A DNA stretch of 64,000 nucleotides from Escherichia phage vB_EcoM_F1: the sequence record NC_054912.1, one strand, 5' to 3'. How positions within the stretch are numbered: position 1 is the first letter of the stretch; each line of letters begins with the position of its first letter. This document shows positions 12,086 to 56,100 of this stretch, piece after piece. The position numbers were made by a program, and so were the translations under genes. A model generated the notes under the pieces. The model saw only the letters and a program-made list of their open reading frames with translations, searched no databases and was not told where the DNA came from.

Positions 12086-12112
12086 AAGGGACCTTTCGGT
12101 CCCTTTTTATTT
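12086..12112. terminator. bidirectional terminator between convergent 24 and rnlB
   Basis: GGGACC-TTTC-GGTCCC hairpin flanked by A-run and T-run. Confidence 0.7.
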
Positions 12113-13115
12113 AACTTACCAATTCAATCCAAGCCGGACGAAGTACATCTTGTACCATTTTAACTAATTCCTTTTTAATCAAAGAAGGATTATCCGCTTG
12201 AGTTAGAGTAATACCTTCACGAGAAGTTTCTTCCAAAATATCTTGAACAGTTAGTCCCATCACCTTTCCAAAATCTTTTGGACCAATTTCGCCAATTTTA
12301 GAAATAACGTTATTTACTCGGTTCAGTGTAACGTAACAAGCTAAAATTCCCACCAATTTGTTATCAGCTTCTGATAGTTCAACTTTAGCTTTAATAGGCT
12401 TATCAGACTTTTTCTTTTCACTAAATTTGGAATTCTTGCATTTAATCGCTACACGATTTCCATTATGAAGCCAAGAAGGATAACAAGGTTTCAATACATA
12501 TCCTTCAGCGGTAAATACTTCGCCTTTTGCTTCGGCATTCCAAACGCATTTATTTGCATCAACTAATCCAGCATGGTCTACTGTAAAATTATAAGACGGA
12601 ACAACAGAATCCAAATCATTTGGAAGTTTAATAAGATCTTCAAATTTACCACGACCCAAAAGTGGAGCGATTTTAAACCCAAATGAATTACAAAACGATT
12701 CCATCATGTAATCATCAACATAAGTTACATCACCACTTTCGGTAGTGACAATAATGTCAAATACATAAAAATCTTTATCGCCATAATCAACATTCTTCTG
12801 AATGCCAGGTCCAGCGAATTCGCCAAAAACTTGATAAGTCACAACAGCTGAAGTTTCCATAATTTCTTGGACAGCTTTAATAGAATCTTCGTAATTCTTT
12901 AAAATAATTTCATAACCGAAGAAATCTTCAGCAGGAAGAATTGGTCCAGTACGTTTAGCGCAAGTTACTTTATCACGCTCAATAATCAATGAGAAATTTG
13001 TGCCGTGAATCTTTTCACGAGCTACCCATTCGCCGCCAGTCAATCCCAAGCTATAAAGTTTTTCAATAAATTTAGAGTTGTAATGATTTTCAAGACTGCT
13101 ATACTTTTTAAACAT
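12111..13115 (-). CDS. rnlB: RNA ligase 2 (Rnl2)
   Basis: 334 aa, [16 protein letters not shown]..., nucleotidyltransferase lysine motif KIHGTN. Confidence 0.93.
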
Positions 13116-25607: not shown

Positions 25608-25636
25608 ATGGGGACCTTTCGGTCCCCATATTTTTA
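25608..25636. terminator. terminator between convergent 54 and the alt-region operon
   Basis: GGGGACC-TTTC-GGTCCCC hairpin followed by ATATTTTTATTT. Confidence 0.7.
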
Positions 25637-25924
25637 TTTACGGAATGAAATGAAAGCAGAAACTGAAGCAACTAAACTGTCTTCAATATAAACTTCAATT
25701 TTTACCGGAGCTTCTGACTCAAATTTACCTGTTACTACACCCTGAAAAATACTTTCAGTCTGTTCTGGCTTTGAAAAATTTTCAGAAGGAAAAATTCCAA
25801 ACTTTTTATCTGTTCCGAAAATTTTGATAAATTCATCATAAACTGCTTCATTAAAAGCATTATCAGCAGGAATAACGCCTTCAACTACAAGTTCTTGACC
25901 TAAAAAGCGTAAAGAAGATTTCAT
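25634..25924 (-). CDS. hypothetical protein (alt.-3 position)
   Basis: 96-aa ORF with SD GAGGA, directly downstream of a sigma70-type early promoter. Confidence 0.6.
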   Translation of the reverse strand: MKSSLRFLGQELVVEGVIPADNAFNEAVYDEFIKIFGTDKKFGIFPSENFSKPEQTESIFQGVVTGKFESEAPVKIEVYIEDSLVASVSAFISFRK

Positions 25925-25955
25925 TTTGTGTTCCTCATGTTATGTCAGTAAGACT

Positions 25956-25984
25956 ACTATAACACAACACGAGGGACTTGTAAA
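25956..25984 (-). promoter_or_regulatory. sigma70-type early promoter (copy A)
   Basis: minus strand GTTTACA-N17-TATAGT with TGn extension; leader and SD GAGGA follow. Confidence 0.6.
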
Positions 25985-26336
25985 CTACATTTTGAACTTT
26001 TTAGTACGCGTAATAGGCATGCGTCGATTTTATACTGTTTCATTGTTTGAAGAGCAGTATCAAAAACAGCATTAATGACACCAATTGGATTTCCACCCAA
26101 CTTAACTAATGATAGTTTCTCATTAACACCTATCATTACGATATGCATCATTTTGTCGCCTGGTTTAACGTTTTATTTGTATCACCGCCAGAGGTGTATG
26201 TACAAAATCTAAATCCAGGAAGCACGCTTTCTTCGCCGGCTTGAATAGCAAAAATTTGTGGTATTTTATGCTTAGGATTTAAGTTAACAACCGGCGCCGA
26301 AGCGCCGTCAAATAATTATGTAATAAGTTCCATGAT
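25957..26336 (-). pseudogene. degenerate tandem copy of the alt 5' region
   Basis: starts ATG GAA CTT ATT ACA then TAA (MELIT*); downstream frame encodes MMHIV...QTMKQYKIDACLLRVLKS matching Alt QTMRQYKIDACMLRILKS; DNA 26160-26336 is alignable to 28200-28388. Confidence 0.7.
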
Positions 26337-28388
26337 TTATCCTTGAACGAACTTGTAAGGCATGTTTGCAATATCTATGCAAGACGCAATAATTCCAAGA
26401 GATGATTCTACTTTCTGTTTAACATTTGATGAAACAAATGATGCAAAGTCAACTCTGTCTTCTATATCACCTGTCATTGTAACCAATTCACCAGTTTCCA
26501 TTAAATGGTCTCCGTCATAGATTACCGATTCGGTGAGTTCTTCTGTGGTCATAACTTCAGCTTGAATAAGCTTGTTGTTAGTTCTAACTGTTCCATCGTT
26601 GTAAGATGCATCAGTTATTTTATTAACTTTGACCATTAATCCACGTGGCAAAATGACTTCCATTTCATTTGAAGGCGCTAAACTTCCACCGGGTAAAACA
26701 ACATTGACCTTATCAGCCCCAGTAATAACCCATCCAATTCCAACTAAATTATCGCTAGAATTTACTAGTCCTTCATCAGTTTTATCAATAGAAACGCTTA
26801 GACGCTTTTCGTCTGGTAAAACACCTATAGATGAATCAGTCATCCAAGTACCAAAAATATTTGGATATAATGATGTTGACACAAAGTTTCTAAAATAAAA
26901 AACTCGATTTTTTACCATTGCTTCATATATTGAAGGTAACATTCGTTGTGAACGATACAAAGTAATACCTTTTGGTAATCGTTCACCATTTTTAAAGGCT
27001 GAATCTAAATTATCAATGGCTTGTTCTATTTCAGATGCTGTTAAAATACTTGTACGCTCATCTGGATTATATAATCCCAAAAGAGCATTATTCATGTCTA
27101 CATATCCTGAACCTACATATTCACGAATTCCGCGTTTTTGCGCTGGTGTGTATTTAGATGAATCTTTATTTTCGACTATAGGATGTAATGACCATCCAGC
27201 GGTAAGAGCATATCCACGTAATTCTCTTCGAATAATCTTTGTTTTTATTGCATTCCAAGAATTTTGTACTAACTCATTTGCAGCATCTTGGTTTAAATGC
27301 GAATGTCTGTTAATATTTCTTTCAAACCAAGCACCTTTATATTTTTCTAAAGTATCATCGACGATAGAAGCAATAGTTTCTAAAGTTTTTATTGAAGTAA
27401 TAGATTCTTTTCGTAATTTTTCTAAAGCTTTATTTTTTATTTCTGCATTAATAATGGATTCTTTATCTTCAGGAATTATAGAAGCTTCTCTGAATGTCAT
27501 TCCAGCTGTAACACTGCTAAGAGCATTCTCTAGTGCAAATCCTGAAGTAGAAATAACAGTTAATTCATTAGCATCAGAAATTAAAGGAGCGTCAGCAGGT
27601 TTATTTAATTCTGCTGCTGAAGCCTCAAATTTTTGAAACATCGGCGTTTCAAATCTAGAAGATTCCAACGACTGACTTTGTGCAATTGCTCTACGTGAAA
27701 TTTTAACTTTAACGATTACAGCTTGGTCAGAACGTTTATCATTTTCTTGTGCAATAGATGCTGCAATTGCCTCATTTTTAGTTACTTGAGCTCCAGTATC
27801 TTTATTGATATAAACATCACCGACCTTCGATTCAACTTTAGTAAAGAGCTCGGTACTAATTTCCGGAACTCCTGGAATGTCTTCTAGTGATACATTTTTG
27901 CGATGTATAAGAATATATGCATACTTTTTATCATAATCCCAGAGTTCCTTAAGAAGGACGTATCTGCCACCTGAACGACTACGGATAAGTCTATCAGCAA
28001 TAACTTGAATTTGTCGAGCTTGGCCAGCAGTTTTAGACTTAAGAATACGAAGCATACAAGCATCAATTTTATACTGACGCATTGTTTGCATTGCAACAGT
28101 AAAAACCGAATTGATATAATTAATTGGGCTTGGACCAAGACCTTTCAATTTAGCAATTGAACCTTTAGCAGTTAATGTAAAAGGAACAATATGCATCATT
28201 TTATCGCCCATCTTTAAATCGCGATTAGTATCACCTCCAGATGTATAGGTACATAAACGAAAGCCTGGTTGTTCAATTGCATCATCAACATGAACTGAAA
28301 AAATTTGCGGTATTTTCTTCTTTGGATTTAAGTTTGTAATTGGAAGAGTAGTATCTTCGTCAAATAATTCTGTAATTAGTTCCATCAT
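26337..28388 (-). CDS. alt: Alt ADP-ribosyltransferase (packaged into heads)
   Basis: 683 aa, MMELITELFDEDTTLPITNLNPKKK...; late promoter 21 nt upstream. Confidence 0.93.
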   Translation of the reverse strand: MMELITELFDEDTTLPITNLNPKKKIPQIFSVHVDDAIEQPGFRLCTYTSGGDTNRDLKMGDKMMHIVPFTLTAKGSIAKLKGLGPSPINYINSVFTVAMQTMRQYKIDACMLRILKSKTAGQARQIQVIADRLIRSRSGGRYVLLKELWDYDKKYAYILIHRKNVSLEDIPGVPEISTELFTKVESKVGDVYINKDTGAQVTKNEAIAASIAQENDKRSDQAVIVKVKISRRAIAQSQSLESSRFETPMFQKFEASAAELNKPADAPLISDANELTVISTSGFALENALSSVTAGMTFREASIIPEDKESIINAEIKNKALEKLRKESITSIKTLETIASIVDDTLEKYKGAWFERNINRHSHLNQDAANELVQNSWNAIKTKIIRRELRGYALTAGWSLHPIVENKDSSKYTPAQKRGIREYVGSGYVDMNNALLGLYNPDERTSILTASEIEQAIDNLDSAFKNGERLPKGITLYRSQRMLPSIYEAMVKNRVFYFRNFVSTSLYPNIFGTWMTDSSIGVLPDEKRLSVSIDKTDEGLVNSSDNLVGIGWVITGADKVNVVLPGGSLAPSNEMEVILPRGLMVKVNKITDASYNDGTVRTNNKLIQAEVMTTEELTESVIYDGDHLMETGELVTMTGDIEDRVDFASFVSSNVKQKVESSLGIIASCIDIANMPYKFVQG

Positions 28389-28408: not shown

Positions 28409-28416
28409 TATTTATA
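28409..28416 (-). promoter_or_regulatory. late promoter TATAAATA (alt)
   Basis: minus-strand TATAAATA 21 nt upstream of the alt ATG. Confidence 0.65.
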
Positions 28417-32366: not shown

Positions 32367-32744
32367 TTAAATATCAAATTCGTTAAGAACTACATCAAAG
32401 ATTGCTTCAAGATGCTCAGGTTTAGCTCTGTTACTCAGAATATGACGAATCCAAGTTTTAACTAAGAGTTTACGATTAGCACCATTCCAGCAAGGATGAG
32501 TCCCTAAATCGCGTTGACGGAAATCATCATCCAGAGCGATTTTAAAGTTGGAACCTTCCATCGTGATTGAAACTGTAATACCGTTTTCAAATCGCATATA
32601 AACGTAGTTAGGAGTCATATACTGATCGATTTCACATACTGATCCATTTTGATGTTTCCAGAGGCAAATAGTATCAATAGAACCTGCAATACCATTAGAA
32701 ACATATTTACGTTCAAAGTTGATGTAGTTCATTTTATTCTCCAA
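32367..32744 (-). CDS. hypothetical protein
   Basis: 125-aa ORF downstream of an early promoter. Confidence 0.55.
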   Translation of the reverse strand: MENKMNYINFERKYVSNGIAGSIDTICLWKHQNGSVCEIDQYMTPNYVYMRFENGITVSITMEGSNFKIALDDDFRQRDLGTHPCWNGANRKLLVKTWIRHILSNRAKPEHLEAIFDVVLNEFDI

Positions 32745-32768
32745 GATGTTTAATTGCGGTACAGGTAT

Positions 32769-32797
32769 ATAATATCATATCCTGTACCAAAGTAAAC
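32769..32797 (-). promoter_or_regulatory. sigma70-type early promoter
   Basis: minus strand GTTTACT-N16-TATTAT, enclosed by inverted repeat GGTACAGG/CCTGTACC. Confidence 0.5.
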
Positions 32798-32799
32798 AA

Positions 32800-33132
32800 T
32801 TATTTTACTACTTTCCAATGCTGCATGTCAAGTTTACCAACTTTTTTCATCTTCTCAATTAAGCGTTCGGCACGTTGGCGAGCTGTAACATAATGCCATT
32901 CGCCTAATTCATTTTGTTCAATTTTTCCAACGATTACTGTATTCAATTCATAAATCCAACCGGTAAAGAAATTATGAACTTGAATTGTAAAGGTGAAATC
33001 TGTTCCCATACCTTCTGTTGTTTCTACTTCAATAATATCACCTTCAACTGCCATTAAGAACCACATAGTTTCATTATATGCACCGTTGAAGCATTTAGTT
33101 TTAACCGCAGCGTTCAGATTAATCGTTTTCAT
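32800..33132 (-). CDS. hypothetical protein
   Basis: 110-aa ORF with SD AAGGAG, downstream of an early promoter. Confidence 0.55.
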   Translation of the reverse strand: MKTINLNAAVKTKCFNGAYNETMWFLMAVEGDIIEVETTEGMGTDFTFTIQVHNFFTGWIYELNTVIVGKIEQNELGEWHYVTARQRAERLIEKMKKVGKLDMQHWKVVK

Positions 33133-33159
33133 TTTATTCTCCTTTGTTTGTGTAAGATA

Positions 33160-33189
33160 ATACTATCACAAAGGAACCATACTGTAAAC
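33160..33189 (-). promoter_or_regulatory. sigma70-type early promoter
   Basis: minus strand GTTTACA-N17-TAGTAT; just downstream of the 33209-33238 terminator. Confidence 0.5.
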
Positions 33190-33208
33190 AACTTTATGCA
33201 ATCTTTGG

Positions 33209-33238
33209 AAAATAAAAAAGGACTCCCGAAGGAGTCCT
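33209..33238 (-). terminator. terminator after the small basic-protein gene
   Basis: GGACTCC-TTCG-GGAGTCC hairpin followed by TTTTTTATTTT on the minus strand. Confidence 0.65.
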
Positions 33239-33242
33239 CAAC

Positions 33243-33419
33243 TTATGCTTTCTGCTTACCAAAACGAGAAGCATCATCTCGAAGAACCGCACGTGCTCGG
33301 CGCATGATCTTCTCAACAGTTTGATTGATACGAGAGTTCGACCCACGCTTGTAGCCAGCGCGTTTAGAATCACCAACTTTCTTTTCAACTGCTTTCTTTG
33401 CTTTAGCTTGTTTTGCCAT
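33243..33419 (-). CDS. small highly basic protein (K/R-rich)
   Basis: 58 aa from ATG 33419 (MAKQAKAKKAVEKKVGDSKRAGYKR...); terminator immediately downstream. Confidence 0.5.
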   Translation of the reverse strand: MAKQAKAKKAVEKKVGDSKRAGYKRGSNSRINQTVEKIMRRARAVLRDDASRFGKQKA

Positions 33420-36069: not shown

Positions 36070-36302
36070 AGTACGCCATACACCCTTTGTGCTTCAACTA
36101 ATCCATCAAAATCCAATTTAAGATGCGATATTTGATCGCCATCACCTGGATTCACAATTACTAATACTGAACGAGGAGTTTCGGTAATAACACGAACCGA
36201 TGTTTCAGGAAATCGTTCAGAAACCTTATTTACTAATTCCTGTGCAAATAGTTTAACTTTTTCTTGGAATTCTTTAACAGTAATCGGTTTTTCACTTAGC
36301 AT
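36066..36302 (-). CDS. hypothetical protein (cd.2 position)
   Basis: 78-aa ORF with SD GAGGA downstream of an early promoter. Confidence 0.55.
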   Translation of the reverse strand: MLSEKPITVKEFQEKVKLFAQELVNKVSERFPETSVRVITETPRSVLVIVNPGDGDQISHLKLDFDGLVEAQRVYGVL

Positions 36303-36331
36303 TTTGTTTTCCTCATTTGTTTGGTAGAGCT

Positions 36332-36361
36332 ATAATATCACAACTCTACCGTAAAGTAAAC
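36332..36361 (-). promoter_or_regulatory. sigma70-type early promoter
   Basis: minus strand GTTTACT-N17-TATTAT, enclosed by inverted repeat GGTAGAG/CTCTACC. Confidence 0.5.
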
Positions 36362-36842: not shown

Positions 36843-38232
<1,390 letters not shown>

Positions 38233-38236
<4 letters not shown>

Positions 38237-38463
38237 TTATTTTTCTCAACCAATGATTGAATATAATCATGCAGGTCTTTAGATGCTTTACCCCACTTAT
38301 TTTGATATTCATTTTTGAGATTAGCACGTGATTGAGCTAATAAAACATCATTAGTTGGAGGTAAAGATTCTAACCGCTGAATCTGGCGTCCATAAATCAT
38401 TGCAGCCATCTCGGATTCATAAATCAATCCTTTGAGATGTTCAAATTGATGCCATGAAATCAT
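38233..38463 (-). CDS. hypothetical protein
   Basis: 76-aa ORF. Confidence 0.5.
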
Positions 38464-38759: not shown

Positions 38760-39109
38760 TTAGAAAGGTCCTGGATGTCTTCTGCGAACTTGTTGAAGGA
38801 GTTGTTGATTTGTTTTTCAACCAATCCTGGCTTATGAGCCACCACATCCGCCTTCTTTGCATCTTTGCGCAGTTTTTCATTTTCACGCTCAATAGCAGCA
38901 ATTGCCTCACGATTTTTATTATTCATCGCATCAATATAATTATACTGAATTCGCAAATTATTTAATGCTAAAGCGTTTTCATTGGCCGTTTTTGTAATTT
39001 CAGTAACTGATGTTTCTAATCTTTCTACCTTATTTTTTAAAATAATAGATGTTCCGCCAAATGCTATTACAAGTAATAGCAATCCAGCTGTAAAATTACT
39101 TACATGCAT
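38756..39109 (-). CDS. i-spanin (Rz-like, N-terminal TM helix plus coiled coil)
   Basis: 117 aa; hydrophobic N-terminus FTAGLLLLVIAFGGTSIIL followed by charged helical region; directly upstream of the o-spanin. Confidence 0.7.
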   Translation of the reverse strand: MHVSNFTAGLLLLVIAFGGTSIILKNKVERLETSVTEITKTANENALALNNLRIQYNYIDAMNNKNREAIAAIERENEKLRKDAKKADVVAHKPGLVEKQINNSFNKFAEDIQDLSK

Positions 39110-39606
39110 AAAGTTTTAATAACCTCTATAATATCGTCTTGAGAAAGACCGTTAATTAAAATATGATGTTCAGCTGGAGATTTAGAAATTTTAAAGCATG
39201 CCTCAACATCTTCTGCCATATCCGATGCACTACGGTTTGGATTACTAATACCAAGGCGGTGTTTTCCCGTCAAAGGATTAACGATGATATAGCATTTGCA
39301 GTTATTGATATGAACATTAGGTTGAGTCTGATTAATGAACACTTCACAATCATACTTAGCGAGTTGATTTTCTAAAAAGACTTTCATCTCTTCAACCGCA
39401 TCAGGAAGCATATCACGGGCTTGCTCAAGACGACGATTTCGATATTCTTTAATGGTCGTTTTCCGCTTGACTTGCTTAGCTAAATCTTTCTTAAGATCAG
39501 TGATATATCCAACTCGACGATTTCCTTTGAATACAGAAATCCCATCTGTAGTATCACCGTATGCTTCAACGACCATTTCAGTAGTAATAAGTTGTAAATC
39601 CATCAT
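39100..39606 (-). CDS. alc: Alc, inhibitor of host transcription on cytosine-containing DNA
   Basis: 168 aa, MMDLQLITTEMVVEAYGDTTDGISVFKGNRRVGY...; early promoter upstream. Confidence 0.9.
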   Translation of the reverse strand: MMDLQLITTEMVVEAYGDTTDGISVFKGNRRVGYITDLKKDLAKQVKRKTTIKEYRNRRLEQARDMLPDAVEEMKVFLENQLAKYDCEVFINQTQPNVHINNCKCYIIVNPLTGKHRLGISNPNRSASDMAEDVEACFKISKSPAEHHILINGLSQDDIIEVIKTLCM

Positions 39607-39634
39607 AAAGTCCTCATGTTATGTCAGTAAGACT

Positions 39635-39663
39635 ACTGTAACACAACACGAGGGACTTGTAAA
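39635..39663 (-). promoter_or_regulatory. sigma70-type early promoter (copy B, alc)
   Basis: minus strand GTTTACA-N17-TACAGT; 53 of 54 nt identical to copy A. Confidence 0.6.
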
Positions 39664-39667
39664 CAGC

Positions 39668-41255
<1,588 letters not shown>

Positions 41256-41785: not shown

Positions 41786-42876
41786 CGTTATGTTCGATTG
41801 AGCTCGCTAATTCTCAACCCGTTCTCTTATGAACTGCTGCATGTTACCATGCAGACCAGACTATATCACAATCCCGGAGGGATTCTCCCCATTTCGAGTC
41901 GCTTGACCCTACGTCCGAAGACTAGTCGTTGAACCTTGCTTTGCAATTGTCGCCGTGCCATCGTTTATATGTTGATGGTGATAAATCTTTCTTATCACAA
42001 TATGGACAATTCAATTGAATTCTATTTGGATTTAATTTACATCTGTCATTATGTTTTAGATAAAATCCAGGACCTTTACCAATGTGACCACAGAAATCAC
42101 ATGTAATTTCTTTTTGTGCAGGATGGGTCCCGTTCTTAACCATTTCTAATGTTTTTGCTGATGTTCTTTTCTTATGGTCTTCTGATAAGAAATGATGTGA
42201 ACCGTCATTTACCCGTTTTGATTGAGTTTCTGACTGCATTTTACCACCGCAAAATACATGAGTACCTTCTTTTATAGCTGCAATATTGCGTTCTTTAACT
42301 TTTGCAATATGCTCAGCTTGTTGAAAATTATGTATACCTAATGCAACTCTATTTAAATTAGATTTACGCTGTATTTCACCGTCTAAAAGATGAAATGTAC
42401 CATTTTCTATCTTAGATTTAATAGAGGCAATATTTTTAGCTCGTACTTCAGGGATATTAAAAATCTGGATTTCTCTAGATTTTGCGGCTTTAGAAGCTAA
42501 TTCAGAAATTTCTTCAGGAGAATATTTCATTCTAAGCTTTATAGCATGACAAGCCTGGTAATCTTTTTGAGCTAAATGTATATCATAATGTTCCTGTATA
42601 GAAAGGCACATCAAATTATCTAAATCATTATTTTCACGGTTACCGTCTTTATGATGGATTTCGTATGTTCTTCCATCAGAATCTTTAGGTATAGGTCCGT
42701 TAGCATCTATCCAAATTTTTCTATAGTTCAATTGTGCATCCTCTTAAAAGTATAATCATATTTATATTATACTAATTAAAGGTGCAAGCAAAACCTTGGC
42801 TGCTAGTTTTCCTATAAAGGACTTTCCAGCAATTAAAGGAGTTTTCGATAAACGTTACCGTTTAAAGGCGCATTTT
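41786..42876 (-). mobile_element. group I self-splicing intron in nrdB carrying an intact homing-endonuclease ORF
   Basis: exon 1 reading frame runs straight into a TAA at the 5' splice site; exon 2 is restored after a terminal G; the gap matches the T4 nrdB intron position. Confidence 0.85.
41922..42731 (-). CDS. HNH homing endonuclease, I-TevIII-like, full length
   Basis: 269 aa; HNH motif EIHHKDGNRENNDLDNLMCLSIQEHYDIH; C-terminal Cys clusters. Confidence 0.85.
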   Translation of the reverse strand: MNYRKIWIDANGPIPKDSDGRTYEIHHKDGNRENNDLDNLMCLSIQEHYDIHLAQKDYQACHAIKLRMKYSPEEISELASKAAKSREIQIFNIPEVRAKNIASIKSKIENGTFHLLDGEIQRKSNLNRVALGIHNFQQAEHIAKVKERNIAAIKEGTHVFCGGKMQSETQSKRVNDGSHHFLSEDHKKRTSAKTLEMVKNGTHPAQKEITCDFCGHIGKGPGFYLKHNDRCKLNPNRIQLNCPYCDKKDLSPSTYKRWHGDNCKARFND

Positions 42877-46710: not shown

Positions 46711-47156
46711 CATTATGTTCAGATAAGGTCGTTAATCTTACCCCGGAATTATATCCAGCTGCATGTCACCATGCAGATCAGACTATATCTCCAACTTGTT
46801 AAAGCAAGTTGTCTATCGTTTCGAGTCACTTGACCCTACTCCCCAAAGGGATAGTCGTTAGGCATTTATGTAGAACCAATTCCATTTATCAGATTTTACA
46901 CGATAAGTAACTAATCCAGACGAAATTTTAAAATGCCTCTTCCATCTCTTTTCAAAATCTTTAGCACTTCCTACATATACTTTATTGTTTAAAGTATTTT
47001 TAATCTGATAAATTCCGCTTTTCATAAATACCTCTTTAAATATAGAAGTATTTATGAAAGGGCAGTCCTACAATTTAGCACGGGATTGTCTACTAGAGAG
47101 GTTCCCCGTTTAGATAGATTACAAGTATAAGTCACCTTATACTCAGGCCTCAATTA
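46711..47156 (-). mobile_element. td group I intron, shortened (446 nt) with internally deleted I-TevI ORF
   Basis: 5' end TAATTGAGGCCTGAGTATAAGGTGACTTATACTTGTAATCTATCTAAACGGGGAACC matches the T4 td intron 5' sequence as recalled; in-frame TAA at the 5' splice site. Confidence 0.88.
46858..47025 (-). pseudogene. I-TevI (GIY-YIG homing endonuclease) remnant, 55 aa, internal deletion
   Basis: MKSGIYQIKNTLNNKVYVGSAKDFEKRWKRHFK fused directly to ISSGLVTYRVKSDKWNWFYINA; junction at the repeated RHFK coding sequence. Confidence 0.8.
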
Positions 47157-48528
<1,372 letters not shown>

Positions 48529-48538
48529 ATTATTTTCC

Positions 48539-48781
48539 TTAAACAGACTTTTTCACAATTTTCCAATCAGCTTTAAACTGTTCAACGTCAGAATGGTAAA
48601 TCCAGAATCCTGCGCTTTCTCCGTCTTCATAAAGAGGGCATCCATCGCATTCATCTTCCCATCCCATATCACGTAAAAGATGTTCAGCTTTTTCAACAAG
48701 TTCAGAATCTTTACCGATGATATTAAAATACCATTTACCTTTAACTTCTGAATCTTTGATGCTTTGGCGTTGTAATCTCAT
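48539..48781 (-). CDS. hypothetical protein (frd.2 position)
   Basis: 80-aa ORF with SD AAGGAG downstream of an early promoter. Confidence 0.55.
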   Translation of the reverse strand: MRLQRQSIKDSEVKGKWYFNIIGKDSELVEKAEHLLRDMGWEDECDGCPLYEDGESAGFWIYHSDVEQFKADWKIVKKSV

Positions 48782-48806
48782 TTTATTCTCCTTAGTTGAT
48801 AGGGTA

Positions 48807-48835
48807 ATAGTATCACACTACTACCCTGATGTAAA
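48807..48835 (-). promoter_or_regulatory. sigma70-type early promoter
   Basis: minus strand GTTTACA-N17-TACTAT, enclosed by inverted repeat AGGGTA/TACCCT. Confidence 0.5.
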
Positions 48836-48838
48836 CAA

Positions 48839-53181: not shown

Positions 53182-56100
53182 ATGGCCGAGATTAAAAGAA
53201 AGTTCAGAGCAGAAGATGGTCTGGACGCAGGTGGTGATAAAATAATCAACGTAGCTTTAGCTGATCGTACCGTAGGAACTGACGGTGTTAACGTTGATTA
53301 CTTAATTCAAGAAAACACAGTTCAACAATATGATCCAACTCGTGGATATTTAAAAGATTTTGTAATCATTTATGATAACCGCTTTTGGGCTGCTATAAAT
53401 GATATTCCAAAACCAGCAGGAGCTTTTAATAGCGTACGATGGAGAGCGTTACGTACCGATGCAAACTGGACAACTGTTTCATCAGGACCTTATCAATTAA
53501 AGTCAGGTGAATTAATTTCAGTTAATACTGCAGCAGGAAATGACATTACATTTACTTTACCATCTTCTCCAATTGACGGTGATACTATCGTTCTCCAAGA
53601 CATTGGAGGAAAACCTGGAGTTAACCAAGTTTTAATTACAGCTCCGGTACAAAGCATTGTAAATTTTAGAGGTCAGCAAGTACGTTCAGTACTAATGACT
53701 CATCCAAAATCACAGATAGTTTTAATTTTTAGTAATCGTCTGTGGCAAATGTATGTCGCTGATTATAGTAGAGAAGCTGTAGTTGTAACGCCTGCGAGTC
53801 TCTATCAGGCGCAATCAAACGATTTTATCGTACGTAGATTTACTTCTGCTGCACCAATTAATGTTAAACTTCCAAGATTTGCTAATCATGGAGATATTAT
53901 TAATTTCGTCGATTTAGATAAACTAAATCCGCTTTATCATACAATTGTTACTACATACGATGAAACGACTTCAATACAAGAAGTTGGAACTCATTCCATT
54001 GAAGGCCGTACAACAATTGACGGTTTCTTGATGTTTGATGATAATGAGAAATTGTGGAGATTGTTTGACGGGGATAGTAAAGCACGTTTACGTATTATAA
54101 CGACTAATTCTAATATTCGTCCAAATGAAGAAGTTATGGTATTTGGTGCGAATAATGGAACAGCTCAGACAATTGAACTTCAGCTTCCGACTGATATTTC
54201 TGTTGGTGATACTGTTAAAATTTCCATGAATTACATGAGAAAAGGACAAACGGTTAAAATCAAAGCTGCTGGTGAAGATAAAATTGCTTCTTCAGTTCAA
54301 TTGCTGCAATTCCCAAAACGTTCAGAGTATCCGCCTGAAACTAAATGGGTAACAGTTCAAGAATTAGTTTTTAACGGTGAAACTAATTATGTTCCAGTTT
54401 TAGAGCTTGCTTATATAGAAGATTCTGATGGAAAATATTGGGTTGTACAGCAAAACGTTCCAACTGTAGAAAGAGTAGATTCTTTAAATGATTCTACTAG
54501 AGCAAGATTAGGCGTAATTGCTTTAGCTACACAAGCTCAAGCTAATGCTGATTTAGAAAATTCTCCACAAAAAGAATTGGCAATTACTCCAGAAACGTTA
54601 GCTAATCGTACTGCTACTGAAACTCGCAGAGGTATCGCAAGAATAGCAACAACTGCTCAAGTTAACCAGGATACTACATTCTCTTTTGCTGATGATATTA
54701 TCATCACTCCTAAAAAGCTGAATGAAAGAACAGCTACTGAAACTCGCAGAGGTGTTGCTGAAATTGCTACGCAGCAAGAAACTAATGCAGGAACCGATGA
54801 TACTACAATCATCACTCCTAAAAAGCTTCAAGCTCGTCAAGGTTCTGAATCATTATCTGGTATTGTAACCTTTGTATCTACTGCAGGTGCTACTCCAGCT
54901 TCTAGCCGTGAATTAAATGGTACGAATGTTTATAATAAAAACACTGATAATTTAGTTGTTTCACCTAAAGCTTTGGATCAGTATAAAGCTACTCCAACAC
55001 AACAAGGTGCGGTAATTTTAGCAGTTGAAAGTGAAGTAATTGCTGGACAAAGTCAGCAAGGATGGGCAAATGCTGTTGTAACGCCAGAAACGTTACATAA
55101 AAAGACATCAACTGATGGAAGAATTGGTTTAATTGAAATTGCTACGCAAAGCGAAGTTAATACAGGAACTGATTATACTCGTGCAGTCACTCCTAAAACT
55201 TTAAATGACCGTAGAGCAACTGAAAGTTTAAGTGGTATAGCTGAAATTGCGACACAAGTTGAATTCGACGCAGGCGTCGACGATACTCGTATCTCTACAC
55301 CATTAAAAATTAAAACCAGATTTAATAGTACTGATCGTACTTCTGTTGTTGCTCTATCTGGATTAGTTGAATCAGGAACTCTCTGGGACCATTATACCCT
55401 TAATATTCTTGAAGCAAATGAGACACAGCGTGGTACACTTCGTGTAGCTACACAGGTCGAAGCTGCTGCGGGAACATTGGATAATGTTCTAATAACTCCT
55501 AAAAAGCTTTTAGGTACTAAATCTACTGAAGCGCAAGAAGGTGTTATTAAAGTTGCAACTCAGTCTGAAACTGTGACTGGAACGTCAACAAATACTGCTG
55601 TATCTCCAAAAAATTTAAAATGGATTGTGCAGAGTGAACCTACTTGGGCAGCAACTACTCTGATAAGAGGTTTTGTTAAAACTTCATCTGGTTCAATTAC
55701 ATTCGTTGGTAATGATACGGTAGGTTCAACACAGCCATTAGAATCATATGAGAAAAATAGCTATGCAGTATCACCATATGAATTAAACCGTGTATTAGCA
55801 AATTATCTGCCGTTAAAAGCAAAAGCTGTAGATAGTAATTTATTGGATGGTCTAGATTCATCTCAGTTCATTCGTAGGGATATTGCGCAGACGGTTAATG
55901 GTTCACTAACCTTAACCCAACAAACGAATCTGAGTGCCCCTCTTGTATCATCTAGTACTGCTACGTTTGGTGGATCAGTTACAGCAAATAGTGTACTAAC
56001 TATTTCTAATACTGGAACAGAAACTCATCTGATTTTTGAGAAAGGACCTCAAATTGGAACTAACCAAGCGCAGACGGTAACTATTAGAGTGTGGGGTAAT

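What the first reader, a model, noticed from the sequence alone, without database searches (positions are those of the whole stretch)
25932..25985. 54-bp promoter-plus-leader cassette present twice, 13.7 kb apart
25932-25985 and 39611-39664 are identical at 53 of 54 positions (TCCTCATGTTATGTCAGTAAGACTACT[A/G]TAACACAACACGAGGGACTTGTAAAC on the plus strand). On the minus strand each reads as a sigma70-type early promoter (GTTTACA, 17-nt spacer, TATAGT or TACAGT) followed by an identical leader and SD GAGGA. One drives the 96-aa ORF downstream of alt, the other drives alc. Identity this high goes beyond a shared consensus and suggests cassette-like duplication or gene conversion, and offers a substrate for recombination that could delete or invert the intervening 13.7 kb.
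Basis: seen in the sequence. Interest (0 to 1): 0.4.

Follow-up and report, generated by a model that had tools for sequence, protein, structure and literature searches.

The report
Twin hairpin-embedded early promoter cassettes
Two T4-type early promoter/ribosome-site cassettes, one before alc and one before alt.-3, are almost identical in every T4-genus phage, probably because they occasionally copy sequence onto each other; this is a tidy but fairly ordinary example of a known kind of phage regulatory cassette.

Summary
25932-25985 and 39611-39664 match at 53/54; there are no other copies in the window and none are expected by chance. The window is Escherichia phage vB_EcoM_FN (Tequatrovirus, about 97% identical to T4). 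About 490 T4-genus genomes carry the same pair, upstream of alt.-3 (DUF5498) and alc.

It is not the early-promoter consensus, because other early promoters here share at most 29/54.

Each copy fills an intergenic gap from the -35 box to the SD. It reads GTTTACA-N14-GTGT-TATAGT, a good T4 early promoter. It is also a near-palindrome: as read-through RNA it folds at -23 to -26 kcal/mol (z -4 to -5), with the SD paired to the promoter spacer. RNA started at the predicted +1 is unstructured. That fits the PeSL class and the known T4 logic of genes e, soc, 49 and I-TevI, but this function is inferred, not shown.

In other genera both loci have early promoters that are only 75-78% alike, so the Tequatrovirus ancestor homogenised them, probably from alc to alt.-3. 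The loci have no fixed differences, and two two-SNP haplotypes occur at both, which indicates recurrent ectopic gene conversion.

The repeats are direct, so inversion is impossible, and deleting the interval would remove essential genes 30 and 31.

Verdict: real, a new member of a known kind, modest interest.

The parts
25932..25985 (-). Cassette copy A (alt.-3 locus): -35 to SD, 54 bp
   Evidence: identical sequence upstream of alt.-3 in Tequatrovirus genomes
39611..39664 (-). Cassette copy B (alc locus): -35 to SD, 54 bp, 53/54 identical to copy A (T27C within the -10)
25979..25985 (-). Copy A -35 element GTTTACA
   Evidence: TTTACA, 17-nt spacer; matches the T4 early consensus GTTTAC(N14)gtggTAttaT quoted
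25956..25964 (-). Copy A extended -10: TGT + TATAGT. The stop codon TAG of the alt.-2-like remnant ORF lies inside it.
25949..25949 (-). Copy A predicted transcription start (A, 7 nt after the -10). Inferred, not mapped.
   Evidence: inference from sigma-70 geometry; the leader from this point is unstructured
25932..25936 (-). Copy A Shine-Dalgarno GAGGA, 7 nt before the alt.-3 ATG (25922-25924)
25933..25974 (-). Copy A RNA hairpin of read-through transcripts. The 5' arm is 25955-25974 (spacer, TGn and part of the -10). The 3' arm is 25933-25950 (leader plus CAUGAGG). 18 bp, -23.0 kcal/mol.
   Evidence: (z -4.1, 0/200 shuffles)
39658..39664 (-). Copy B -35 element GTTTACA
39635..39643 (-). Copy B extended -10: TGT + TACAGT
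39611..39615 (-). Copy B Shine-Dalgarno GAGGA; alc ATGs at 39604-39606 and 39601-39603
39608..39658 (-). Copy B RNA hairpin, extended to about 22 bp by the alc-specific CUU flank, -25.7 kcal/mol
   Evidence: z -5.2, 0/200 shuffles
25634..25924 (-). alt.-3 homologue (96 aa, DUF5498), the gene served by copy A
39100..39606 (-). alc (inhibitor of host transcription), the gene served by copy B
39668..40828 (-). rnlA. Its stop codon TAA is 3 nt upstream of copy B, so it is the source of read-through into the alc cassette.
25957..26336 (-). alt.-1/alt.-2-type remnant of a second alt paralogue, running into copy A. The deletion junction is the 9-bp repeat CTAAAAAGT at 25996-26004.
   Evidence: the full-length paralogue is present in T6, PP01, P8, KIT03 and Shfl2
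28409..28416 (-). Late-promoter motif TATAAATA just upstream of alt (26337-28388), a likely source of late read-through into copy A
   Evidence: the same feature is annotated in SA20RB
25608..25629 (.). Bidirectional terminator-like hairpin ending the alt.-3 transcription unit

Best explanation
These are two copies of one PeSL-type regulatory cassette: a T4 early sigma-70 promoter, a stem-loop and a ribosome-binding site. Each copy fills an intergenic gap, rnlA|alc and alt-paralogue|alt.-3. Shown here: the pair is present in essentially every Tequatrovirus genome. It is far more alike than any other early promoters. In other genera the same two loci carry early promoters that are only 75-78% alike. 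Within Tequatrovirus the two loci have no fixed differences and share polymorphisms, including two two-SNP haplotypes. Inferred: in the Tequatrovirus ancestor one promoter region overwrote the other, probably alc onto alt.-3, with the exchange bounded by the shared -35 (GTTTACA) and SD (ATGAGGA) motifs. Since then, occasional ectopic gene conversion by the T4 recombination system, acting on about 54 bp of homology, has kept the copies in one allele pool. Function, inferred: host RNA polymerase starts about 7 nt after the -10 (A37) immediately after infection and produces an unstructured leader with a free SD. Transcripts that read in from upstream (rnlA, or alt from its late promoter) contain the whole 54 nt. 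These fold into an 18-22-bp hairpin that pairs the SD (CAUGAGG) with the promoter spacer (CCUCGUG). As a result alc and alt.-3 would be translated mainly from their own early transcripts, as is established for T4 genes e, soc, 49 and I-TevI. The hairpin may also attenuate read-through.
For: Identity and uniqueness. Genus-wide pairing: 498 records, 995 places. Not the consensus: other early promoters match at most 29/54 ungapped and 60-72% gapped. Promoter features. Both genes are early at RNA and protein level in T4. Hairpin: -23.0 and -25.7 kcal/mol, z -4.1 and -5.2, with an unstructured +1 leader. SD-masking hairpins with different sequences occur at alc in IME08 (z -3.8) and Melville (z -3.6) but not at outgroup alt.-3 promoters (z -1.2 and +0.6). 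One compensatory pair, C15-G50 to U.G to U-A. Population data from 13 genomes: mean within-genome paralogue difference 2.5/54, against 2.3 (alc-alc), 3.2 (alt3-alt3) and 3.0 (cross). Six identical substitutions occur at both loci. G29A+G32A is at alc in about 21 records and at alt.-3 in at least 13; G32A+C34T is at alc in about 7 and at alt.-3 in Shfl2 and others. PeSL definition, and crossovers between the -10 and SD. Precedent for SD masking. Late promoter upstream of alt.
Against: No 5'-end mapping or translation data for these two promoters was found. Within-genus covariation is not significant (70/500 shuffles), and five variants break a pair. The RB69-like alc promoter has no such hairpin. 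Other early promoters here have hairpins over the -10 that do not include the SD, so SD pairing could be incidental to a different hairpin role. Shared polymorphisms cluster at loop and -10 positions, where recurrent mutation is plausible (P rises to 0.06 if only about 30 changes are tolerated). The permutation test for within-genome similarity is marginal (P 0.017 with 11 genomes, 0.063 with 13). The direction alc to alt.-3 rests on structure, not identity: the T4 cassette is 75% identical to IME08 alc and 72% to IME08 alt.-3.
Confidence: 0.7

Rival explanations
1. A single ancient duplication or replacement with no later exchange. The two copies stay alike only because Tequatroviruses are young (about 2-5% divergence) and the promoter, hairpin and SD are under purifying selection. 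Shared variants are recurrent mutations at the few free positions.
For: Shared variants lie mostly in the loop, bulge or -10 (positions 27, 29, 32-34). The permutation test is marginal (P 0.063). T27C is largely alc-specific (9/13 versus 1/13), which shows some differentiation between the loci.
Against: There are no fixed differences, although each locus carries 4-6% per-site diversity, no less than the flanking coding DNA. Two different two-SNP haplotypes each occur at both loci. PP01, UFV10 and G28 carry G29A+G32A in all their copies, while P8 and HZ_ZJUN4 carry it only at alt.-3.
Confidence: 0.2
2. The hairpin acts mainly as a transcription terminator or attenuator (the PeSL function measured in RB49), or as an RNase processing or stability element. 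It would insulate alc and alt.-3 transcriptionally, and the SD pairing would be incidental.
For: PeSL stem-loops acted as terminators in reporter assays. The SA20RB annotators called the alt.-3 cassette a rho-independent terminator. Other early promoters in the window have hairpins over the -10 that leave the SD free.
Against: No U-tract follows either hairpin (ACACAAAAUG and CUUUAUGAUG), and the terminator scan did not flag them. SD pairing recurs at alc in three genera with different sequences.
Confidence: 0.3
3. The 54 bp is simply the T4 early-promoter family consensus.
For: It shares GTTTAC, TGn, a TAnnnT -10 and a GAGG-type SD with other early promoters.
Against: The next best early promoter matches at 29/54. 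blastn with the 54-mer found 995 places in 498 records, and all 60 listed records had exactly two.
Confidence: 0.01
4. An actively mobile mini-element that inserts copies of itself around the genome.
For: It has sharp boundaries, and PeSL mini-circles are known in RB49.
Against: The genus-wide count was 995 places in 498 records; in the genomes examined, the two copies always occupy the same two positions, which already held promoters in the outgroups. The only third copy found is a 351-bp local tandem duplication. Dhakavirus has no twin.
Confidence: 0.03

Closest known systems
PeSL (promoter-early stem-loop) cassettes of T4-type phages (Arbiol et al. 2010, PMC2839356; Comeau et al. 2014, PMC4122927)
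   Same: [quoted passage not shown] It has a strong sigma-70-like promoter (PST/T4 type TTTACW-N17-TAYWAT), a stem-loop between the -35 and -10 or overlapping the -10, and an SD at the 3' end. Recombination between copies occurs, with crossovers mapped between the -10 and the SD or ATG.
   Different: There are only two near-identical copies, 13.7 kb apart, flanking essential genes rather than ORFan clusters. No G/C-rich terminator stem or U-tract is present. Here the stem's 3' arm is the SD itself. The outcome seen is conversion (homogenisation), not deletion, insertion or mini-circle formation. Neither paper mentions alc or alt.
SD-masking leader hairpins of T4 genes e, soc, 49 and I-TevI (reviewed in Uzan and Miller 2010, PMC3014915)
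   Same: Long read-through transcripts fold so that the SD and/or AUG is in a helix. A promoter located just upstream of the RBS produces transcripts that lack the 5' arm and are translated.
   Different: In the known cases the internal promoter is late (or middle) and the silenced read-through is early. Here the internal promoter is early and the silenced read-through would be early, middle or late RNA from upstream. No experimental test exists for alc or alt.-3.
Canonical T4 early promoters (Pe; Hinton 2010, PMC2988021)
   Same: GTTTAC -35, a 17-nt spacer, TGn, a TAnnnT -10 and A/T-rich upstream DNA. The genes are expressed early.
   Different: Two members are 98-100% identical over 54 bp, including the non-consensus spacer and leader. 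The UP-element regions are not part of the repeat and differ between the loci.
Concerted evolution of dispersed short repeats by ectopic gene conversion (general phenomenon; from my own knowledge, for example the duplicated tuf genes of enterobacteria)
   Same: Paralogous copies share polymorphisms and lack fixed differences.
   Different: The tract is only 54 bp and non-coding, in a lytic phage with a very active recombination system. The evidence here is comparative only.

Membership tests
PeSL cassette | [quoted passage not shown] | tested here: met
   Copy B: rnlA TAA + 3 nt + cassette + 4 nt + ATG. Copy A: in T6-type genomes the stop TAG of the second alt paralogue overlaps G1 of the cassette, and 7 nt separate the SD from the ATG.
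PeSL cassette | Sigma-70-like early promoter, -35/-10 with a spacer of about 17 nt (PST/T4 type TTTACW-N17-TAYWAT) | tested here: met
   TTTACA-N17-TATAGT/TACAGT with TGn. The fifth position is G rather than W, and some genomes have TATAAT.
PeSL cassette | Stable stem-loop between the -35 and -10 or overlapping the -10 | tested here: met
   An 18-22-bp hairpin spanning the spacer, the -10 and the leader, z -4.1 and -5.2.
PeSL cassette | [quoted passage not shown] | tested here: inconclusive
   Copy A has CTAAAAAGTTCAAAATGTA directly upstream. Copy B has an A/T-rich stretch only further upstream, preceded by CCCAGAAGGATACTAAGCT. Both regions lie in coding DNA and are not part of the repeat.
PeSL cassette | The stem-loop acts as a terminator or attenuator | not testable with these tools
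   No U-tract, and not flagged by the terminator scan. A third-party annotation calls it a terminator.
PeSL cassette | Mediates recombination between copies | tested here: met
   Shared haplotypes at both loci indicate exchange. No deletion or insertion products were seen.
T4 early promoter (Pe) | Match to GTTTAC(N14)gtggTAttaT with TGn and a 17-nt spacer | tested here: met
   GTTTAC-AAGTCCCTCGTGTT-GTGT-TATAGT.
T4 early promoter (Pe) | Active immediately after infection with unmodified host RNA polymerase, with a mapped 5' end | not testable with these tools
   Indirect evidence only: alc and alt.-3 are early RNA and early protein in T4 omics. No TSS data were found.
SD-masking leader hairpin (e/soc/49/I-TevI type) | The SD and/or AUG is sequestered in a helix of the longer transcript | tested here: met
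   CAUGAGG is paired with CCUCGUG in the MFE and centroid structures.
SD-masking leader hairpin (e/soc/49/I-TevI type) | The proximal promoter starts inside the structure, so its own transcript lacks the 5' arm | tested here: inconclusive
   The predicted +1 (A37) lies 3' of the whole 5' arm, and the resulting leader folds at 0 to -0.8 kcal/mol. The +1 is predicted, not mapped.
SD-masking leader hairpin (e/soc/49/I-TevI type) | Reduced translation from read-through transcripts | not testable with these tools
   Needs reporter fusions or ribosome profiling.

The most novel reading that the evidence does not exclude
Embedding the promoter in an SD-masking hairpin may be a general insulating device of T-even early genes: an ORF is translated only from its own promoter's transcript. 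The alc/alt.-3 twin would then be a co-regulation module kept identical by gene conversion, so that Alc and the uncharacterised DUF5498 protein Alt.-3 are made with the same timing and dose. That would hint that Alt.-3 works with Alc or Alt in the takeover of host transcription.
Probability: 0.15. Interest if true: 0.55.

Novelty: new member of a known kind. Interest (0 to 1): 0.3.

Why it matters
The element gives a clean natural example of a 54-bp non-coding repeat behaving as a single allele pool across 13.7 kb of a lytic phage genome. This bears on how little homology the T4 recombination machinery needs, and on how PeSL-type cassettes spread regulatory sequence. It also nominates alc and alt.-3 as untested candidates for the "promoter inside an SD-masking hairpin" logic, which so far is documented for late and middle genes. 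Practically, people engineering T4-type phages should expect ectopic exchange between these two sites, and should expect read-through constructs into alc or alt.-3 to be poorly translated. None of this overturns current understanding.

Tried and rejected
- Coding homology beyond the cassette: MAFFT suggested weak similarity in the first codons, but BLASTP of Alt.-3 against Alc finds nothing. Rejected.
- Known RNA family: Rfam shows no hit at either cassette at E<=1, and no gathering-level hit in the whole window.
- Intrinsic terminator: not flagged by the scan, and no U-tract.
- Within-genus covariation as proof of the hairpin: not significant.
- Twin cassette in Dhakavirus: the "second place" in CLBP2 is only a 24-nt partial match elsewhere.
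- Third copy as evidence of mobility: the extra copy in vB_EcoM-G28 is a perfect 351-bp local tandem duplication, or possibly an assembly artefact.
- Literature: the T4 genome review (PMC150520) is not held. No TSS map for these promoters was found. The 2014 PeSL paper does not mention alc, alt or rnlA.
- IMG/VR gave only 7 T4-like loci, so population sampling relied on GenBank phage records.
- This phage's own record (MZ170041.1) was not among the rows listed for the 54-mer search, so "two copies genome-wide" is shown directly for the window and for 60 listed relatives. For this genome it is inferred from the totals (498 records, 995 places).

Full report
**Observation.** Read on the minus strand they are GTTTACAAGTCCCTCGTGTTGTGTTA[T/C]AGTAGTCTTACTGACATAACATGAGGA. 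With up to 3 mismatches allowed, these are the only two matches in the window, against 0 expected in shuffles. They form repeat family D6 with spacing 13,679 bp. Similarity begins at the G of GTTTACA and stops at GAGGA, and the flanks are unrelated. MAFFT hinted at residual similarity in the first codons, but the two proteins show no BLASTP similarity.

**Source and genes.** The window is 100% identical to Escherichia phage vB_EcoM_FN (MZ170041.1), a Tequatrovirus about 97% identical to T4. Using the T4 reference annotation:
- Copy A lies upstream of alt.-3 (96 aa, Pfam DUF5498).
- Copy B fills the rnlA-alc intergenic gap.
- Everything is transcribed on the minus strand, in the order rnlA, alc, pseT.3 ... 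31 ... 30, alt, alt.-1/-2, alt.-3.

**Is it just the early-promoter consensus?** No. I scanned the window for .TT[TG]AC-N16-18-TAnnnT sites and compared 54 nt from the -35. The best other early promoters (36361, 48836, 33189, 49834) share only 24-29 of 54 positions with the cassette. With gapped global alignment, unrelated early promoters are 60-72% alike. A blastn search of 50,697 phage records with the 54-mer found 498 records and 995 places. All 60 listed records had exactly two copies at 94-100% identity, and they include T4, T6, RB32, PP01 and Shfl2. The pair is therefore a genus-wide feature, not a peculiarity of this isolate and not a family consensus.

**Anatomy.**
- Each copy matches the T4 early promoter pattern: GTTTAC, N14, GTGT (which contains TGn), then TATAGT or TACAGT, with a 17-nt spacer.
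- The SD GAGGA lies 7 nt before the alt.-3 ATG and 4 or 7 nt before the two alc ATGs.
- The 54 bp is also an imperfect palindrome. CCTCGTGTTGTGTT (spacer, TGn and the start of the -10) pairs with GACATAACATGAGG (leader and SD), and a short upper stem carries a GUCU loop.
- As RNA the cassette folds at -23.0 kcal/mol (copy A, z -4.1) and -25.7 kcal/mol (copy B, z -5.2, extended to about 22 bp by the alc flank). None of 200 shuffles folds as well.
- A transcript starting at the predicted +1 (A37, 7 nt after the -10) lacks the whole 5' arm and is unstructured, at 0 and -0.8 kcal/mol.
- Rfam has no family matching either site.

[quoted passage not shown] Recombination crossovers have been mapped between the -10 and the SD or ATG of these cassettes. 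Four of five other early promoters in this window also carry significant hairpins over their -10 (z -4.5, -2.3, -3.7, -4.9), and one of them (33189) also pairs its SD. The functional logic in which read-through RNA masks the SD while the proximal promoter's RNA is open is established in T4 for e, soc, 49 and I-TevI. It has not been reported for alc or alt.-3 as far as I could find. Two further points fit this logic: both genes are early at RNA and protein level in T4, and a late-promoter motif sits just upstream of alt (28409-28416), so late alt transcripts should read into copy A.

**Evolution: outgroups.**
- Alc and Alt.-3 proteins are at least 90-95% identical within Tequatrovirus and at most 60% identical in the nearest other genera.
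- In Dhakavirus IME08, the RB69-like NHEP10 and Gelderlandvirus Melville, the rnlA-alc gap also holds a GTTTACA early promoter.
- In IME08 and NHEP10 the alt.-3 gap does too. IME08 even keeps the same ...AAAATG-TAG-TTTACA overlap of stop codon and -35.
- Within each outgroup, however, the two promoters are only 75-78% alike, barely above background.
- The IME08 alc cassette has no twin at alt.-3.
- SD-masking hairpins with different sequences are present at alc in IME08 (UCUCCUCAU/AUGAGGAGA, z -3.8) and Melville (UCUCCGUUU/AAACGGAGA, z -3.6). They are absent from the outgroup alt.-3 promoters (z -1.2 and +0.6) and from RB69-like alc (z -0.8).

I infer that both promoters are old, and that in the Tequatrovirus stem lineage one was overwritten by the other, probably alc onto alt.-3. 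The direction rests on the hairpin feature, because sequence identity does not discriminate (75% versus 72%).

**Evolution: within Tequatrovirus.** I extracted both copies from 13 genomes.
- Paralogues within a genome differ at 0-5 positions (mean 2.5).
- Orthologues between genomes differ by 2.3 (alc) and 3.2 (alt.-3). Cross-genome alc versus alt.-3 pairs differ by 3.0.
- There is no fixed difference between the loci, although T27C is mostly an alc allele.
- Per-site diversity in the cassette (4-6%) is no lower than in the flanking coding DNA.
- Six identical substitutions occur at both loci. The probability of this is 3e-6 if all changes are equally possible and 0.06 if only about 30 are tolerated.
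- Two two-SNP haplotypes occur at both loci. G29A+G32A is in all copies in PP01, UFV10 and G28, but only at alt.-3 in P8 and HZ_ZJUN4. G32A+C34T is at alc in SA20RB and at alt.-3 in Shfl2.
- Locus-specific queries against all phage records give G29A+G32A at alc in about 21 records and at alt.-3 in at least 13. They give G32A+C34T at alc in about 7 records and at alt.-3 in at least 1, plus several records one mismatch away.

This is the signature of occasional ectopic gene conversion in both directions, superimposed on ordinary recombination between phages. It agrees with the statement that T4 recombination needs only small patches of homology of about 50 bp. The evidence is comparative and the sample was chosen for divergence. 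The permutation test is marginal (P 0.017, then 0.063), so I rate recurrent conversion as likely rather than proven.

**Recombination consequences.** The repeats are direct, so inversion is excluded. Unequal exchange would delete or duplicate 13.7 kb containing alc, pseT, cd, 31, rIII, 30.x, 30 and alt. Genes 30 and 31 are essential (established T4 genetics), so the deletion is inviable. The duplication would strain headful packaging. No such rearrangement showed up in the phage records: the 54-mer search gave 995 places in 498 records. The single three-copy genome found (vB_EcoM-G28) has a perfect 351-bp local tandem duplication of the rnlA 3' end, the cassette and the alc 5' end. That is unrelated to cassette-cassette exchange and may be an assembly artefact.

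**Weaknesses of the functional model.**
- Within-genus covariation is weak: one compensatory pair (C15-G50 to U.G to U-A), three pairs changed on one side only but still pairing, and five variants that break a pair. 70 of 500 shuffles score as well.
- Many early-promoter hairpins do not include the SD, so the general role of these stems may be attenuation, processing or something acting at the DNA level.
- The +1 is predicted, not mapped.

I therefore give about 0.45 to SD masking as the main role of the hairpin, about 0.3 to attenuation or processing, and about 0.7 to the overall picture: twin PeSL-type early promoter cassettes, homogenised in the Tequatrovirus ancestor and kept alike by conversion and selection.

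**Verdict.** The element is a new, well-characterised member of a known kind (PeSL / T4 early promoter with an SD-masking leader). Interest is modest.

Noticed in passing
window 25957-26336 (minus); junction repeat at 25996-26004: The alt.-1/alt.-2 ORFs that T4 annotation calls 'an old duplication of the first part of alt' are the remnant of a full-length second alt paralogue of about 685 aa. That paralogue is intact in T6, PP01, P8, KIT03, UFV10, SA20RB and Shfl2. The roughly 1.7-kb internal deletion in T4 and FN joins two copies of the 9-bp repeat CTAAAAAGT and ends 10 nt upstream of cassette copy A.
   Followed up: yes
window 36295-36361, 48770-48836, 33122-33189, 32730-32797 (minus): Other strong early promoters carry significant RNA hairpins whose stems flank or overlap the -10 (z -4.5, -2.3, -3.7, -4.9). 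The one at 33189 also pairs its SD (UUCCUUUG/CAAAGGAG). This is the PeSL architecture seen genome-wide.
   Followed up: partly
window 41837-42114 and 46759-47166 (minus); repeat D13 at 41827-41867 / 46749-46789: A 41-nt, 85% identical repeat corresponds to the 3' parts of two group I intron matches (RF00028, 38-40 bits, E about 1e-7, below the gathering score of 50) in the nrdB and td regions.
   Followed up: partly
L026 (vB_EcoM-G28, MG867727.1) 37898-38249: A perfect 351-bp tandem duplication of the rnlA 3' end, the cassette and the first 148 nt of alc creates a third cassette copy and a truncated alc ORF. It could be real or an assembly artefact.
   Followed up: partly
window 25932-25936 / 39611-39615 compared with L014, L016, L017: The Tequatrovirus cassette SD (GAGGA followed by A or C) lacks the RegB cleavage motif GGAG. 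The alc SDs of IME08, the RB69-like NHEP10 and Melville (GAGGAG, GAGGAG, CGGAGA) contain it, so RegB sensitivity of alc mRNA may differ between genera.
   Followed up: no
L015 (VR25) 895-960: Gaprivervirus has an extra small ORF between rnlA and alc. It is preceded by a G/C stem (GGGG...CCCC) plus a T-run, with a -35-like TGTACA in the loop. This is a classical PeSL of the RB49 type.
   Followed up: no
window 54583-55508 (plus): Families of 30-68-nt direct repeats (D1, D3, D7; 66-87% identity) with spacings of 108-483 nt. They look like a repeated peptide motif inside a large structural gene.
   Followed up: no
window 12088-12134 and 25611-25657: The same terminator-like hairpin GGGACCTTTCGGTCCC occurs twice (D11). 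The copy at 25608-25629 is the bidirectional terminator between alt.-3 and gene 54.
   Followed up: no
window 33204-33287 (minus): A sub-threshold Rfam hit to Rhizobiales sRNA Atu_C8 (31 bits against gathering score 50, E 0.006). It overlaps a terminator-like hairpin just upstream of the 33189 early promoter and is probably a chance match driven by structure.
   Followed up: no
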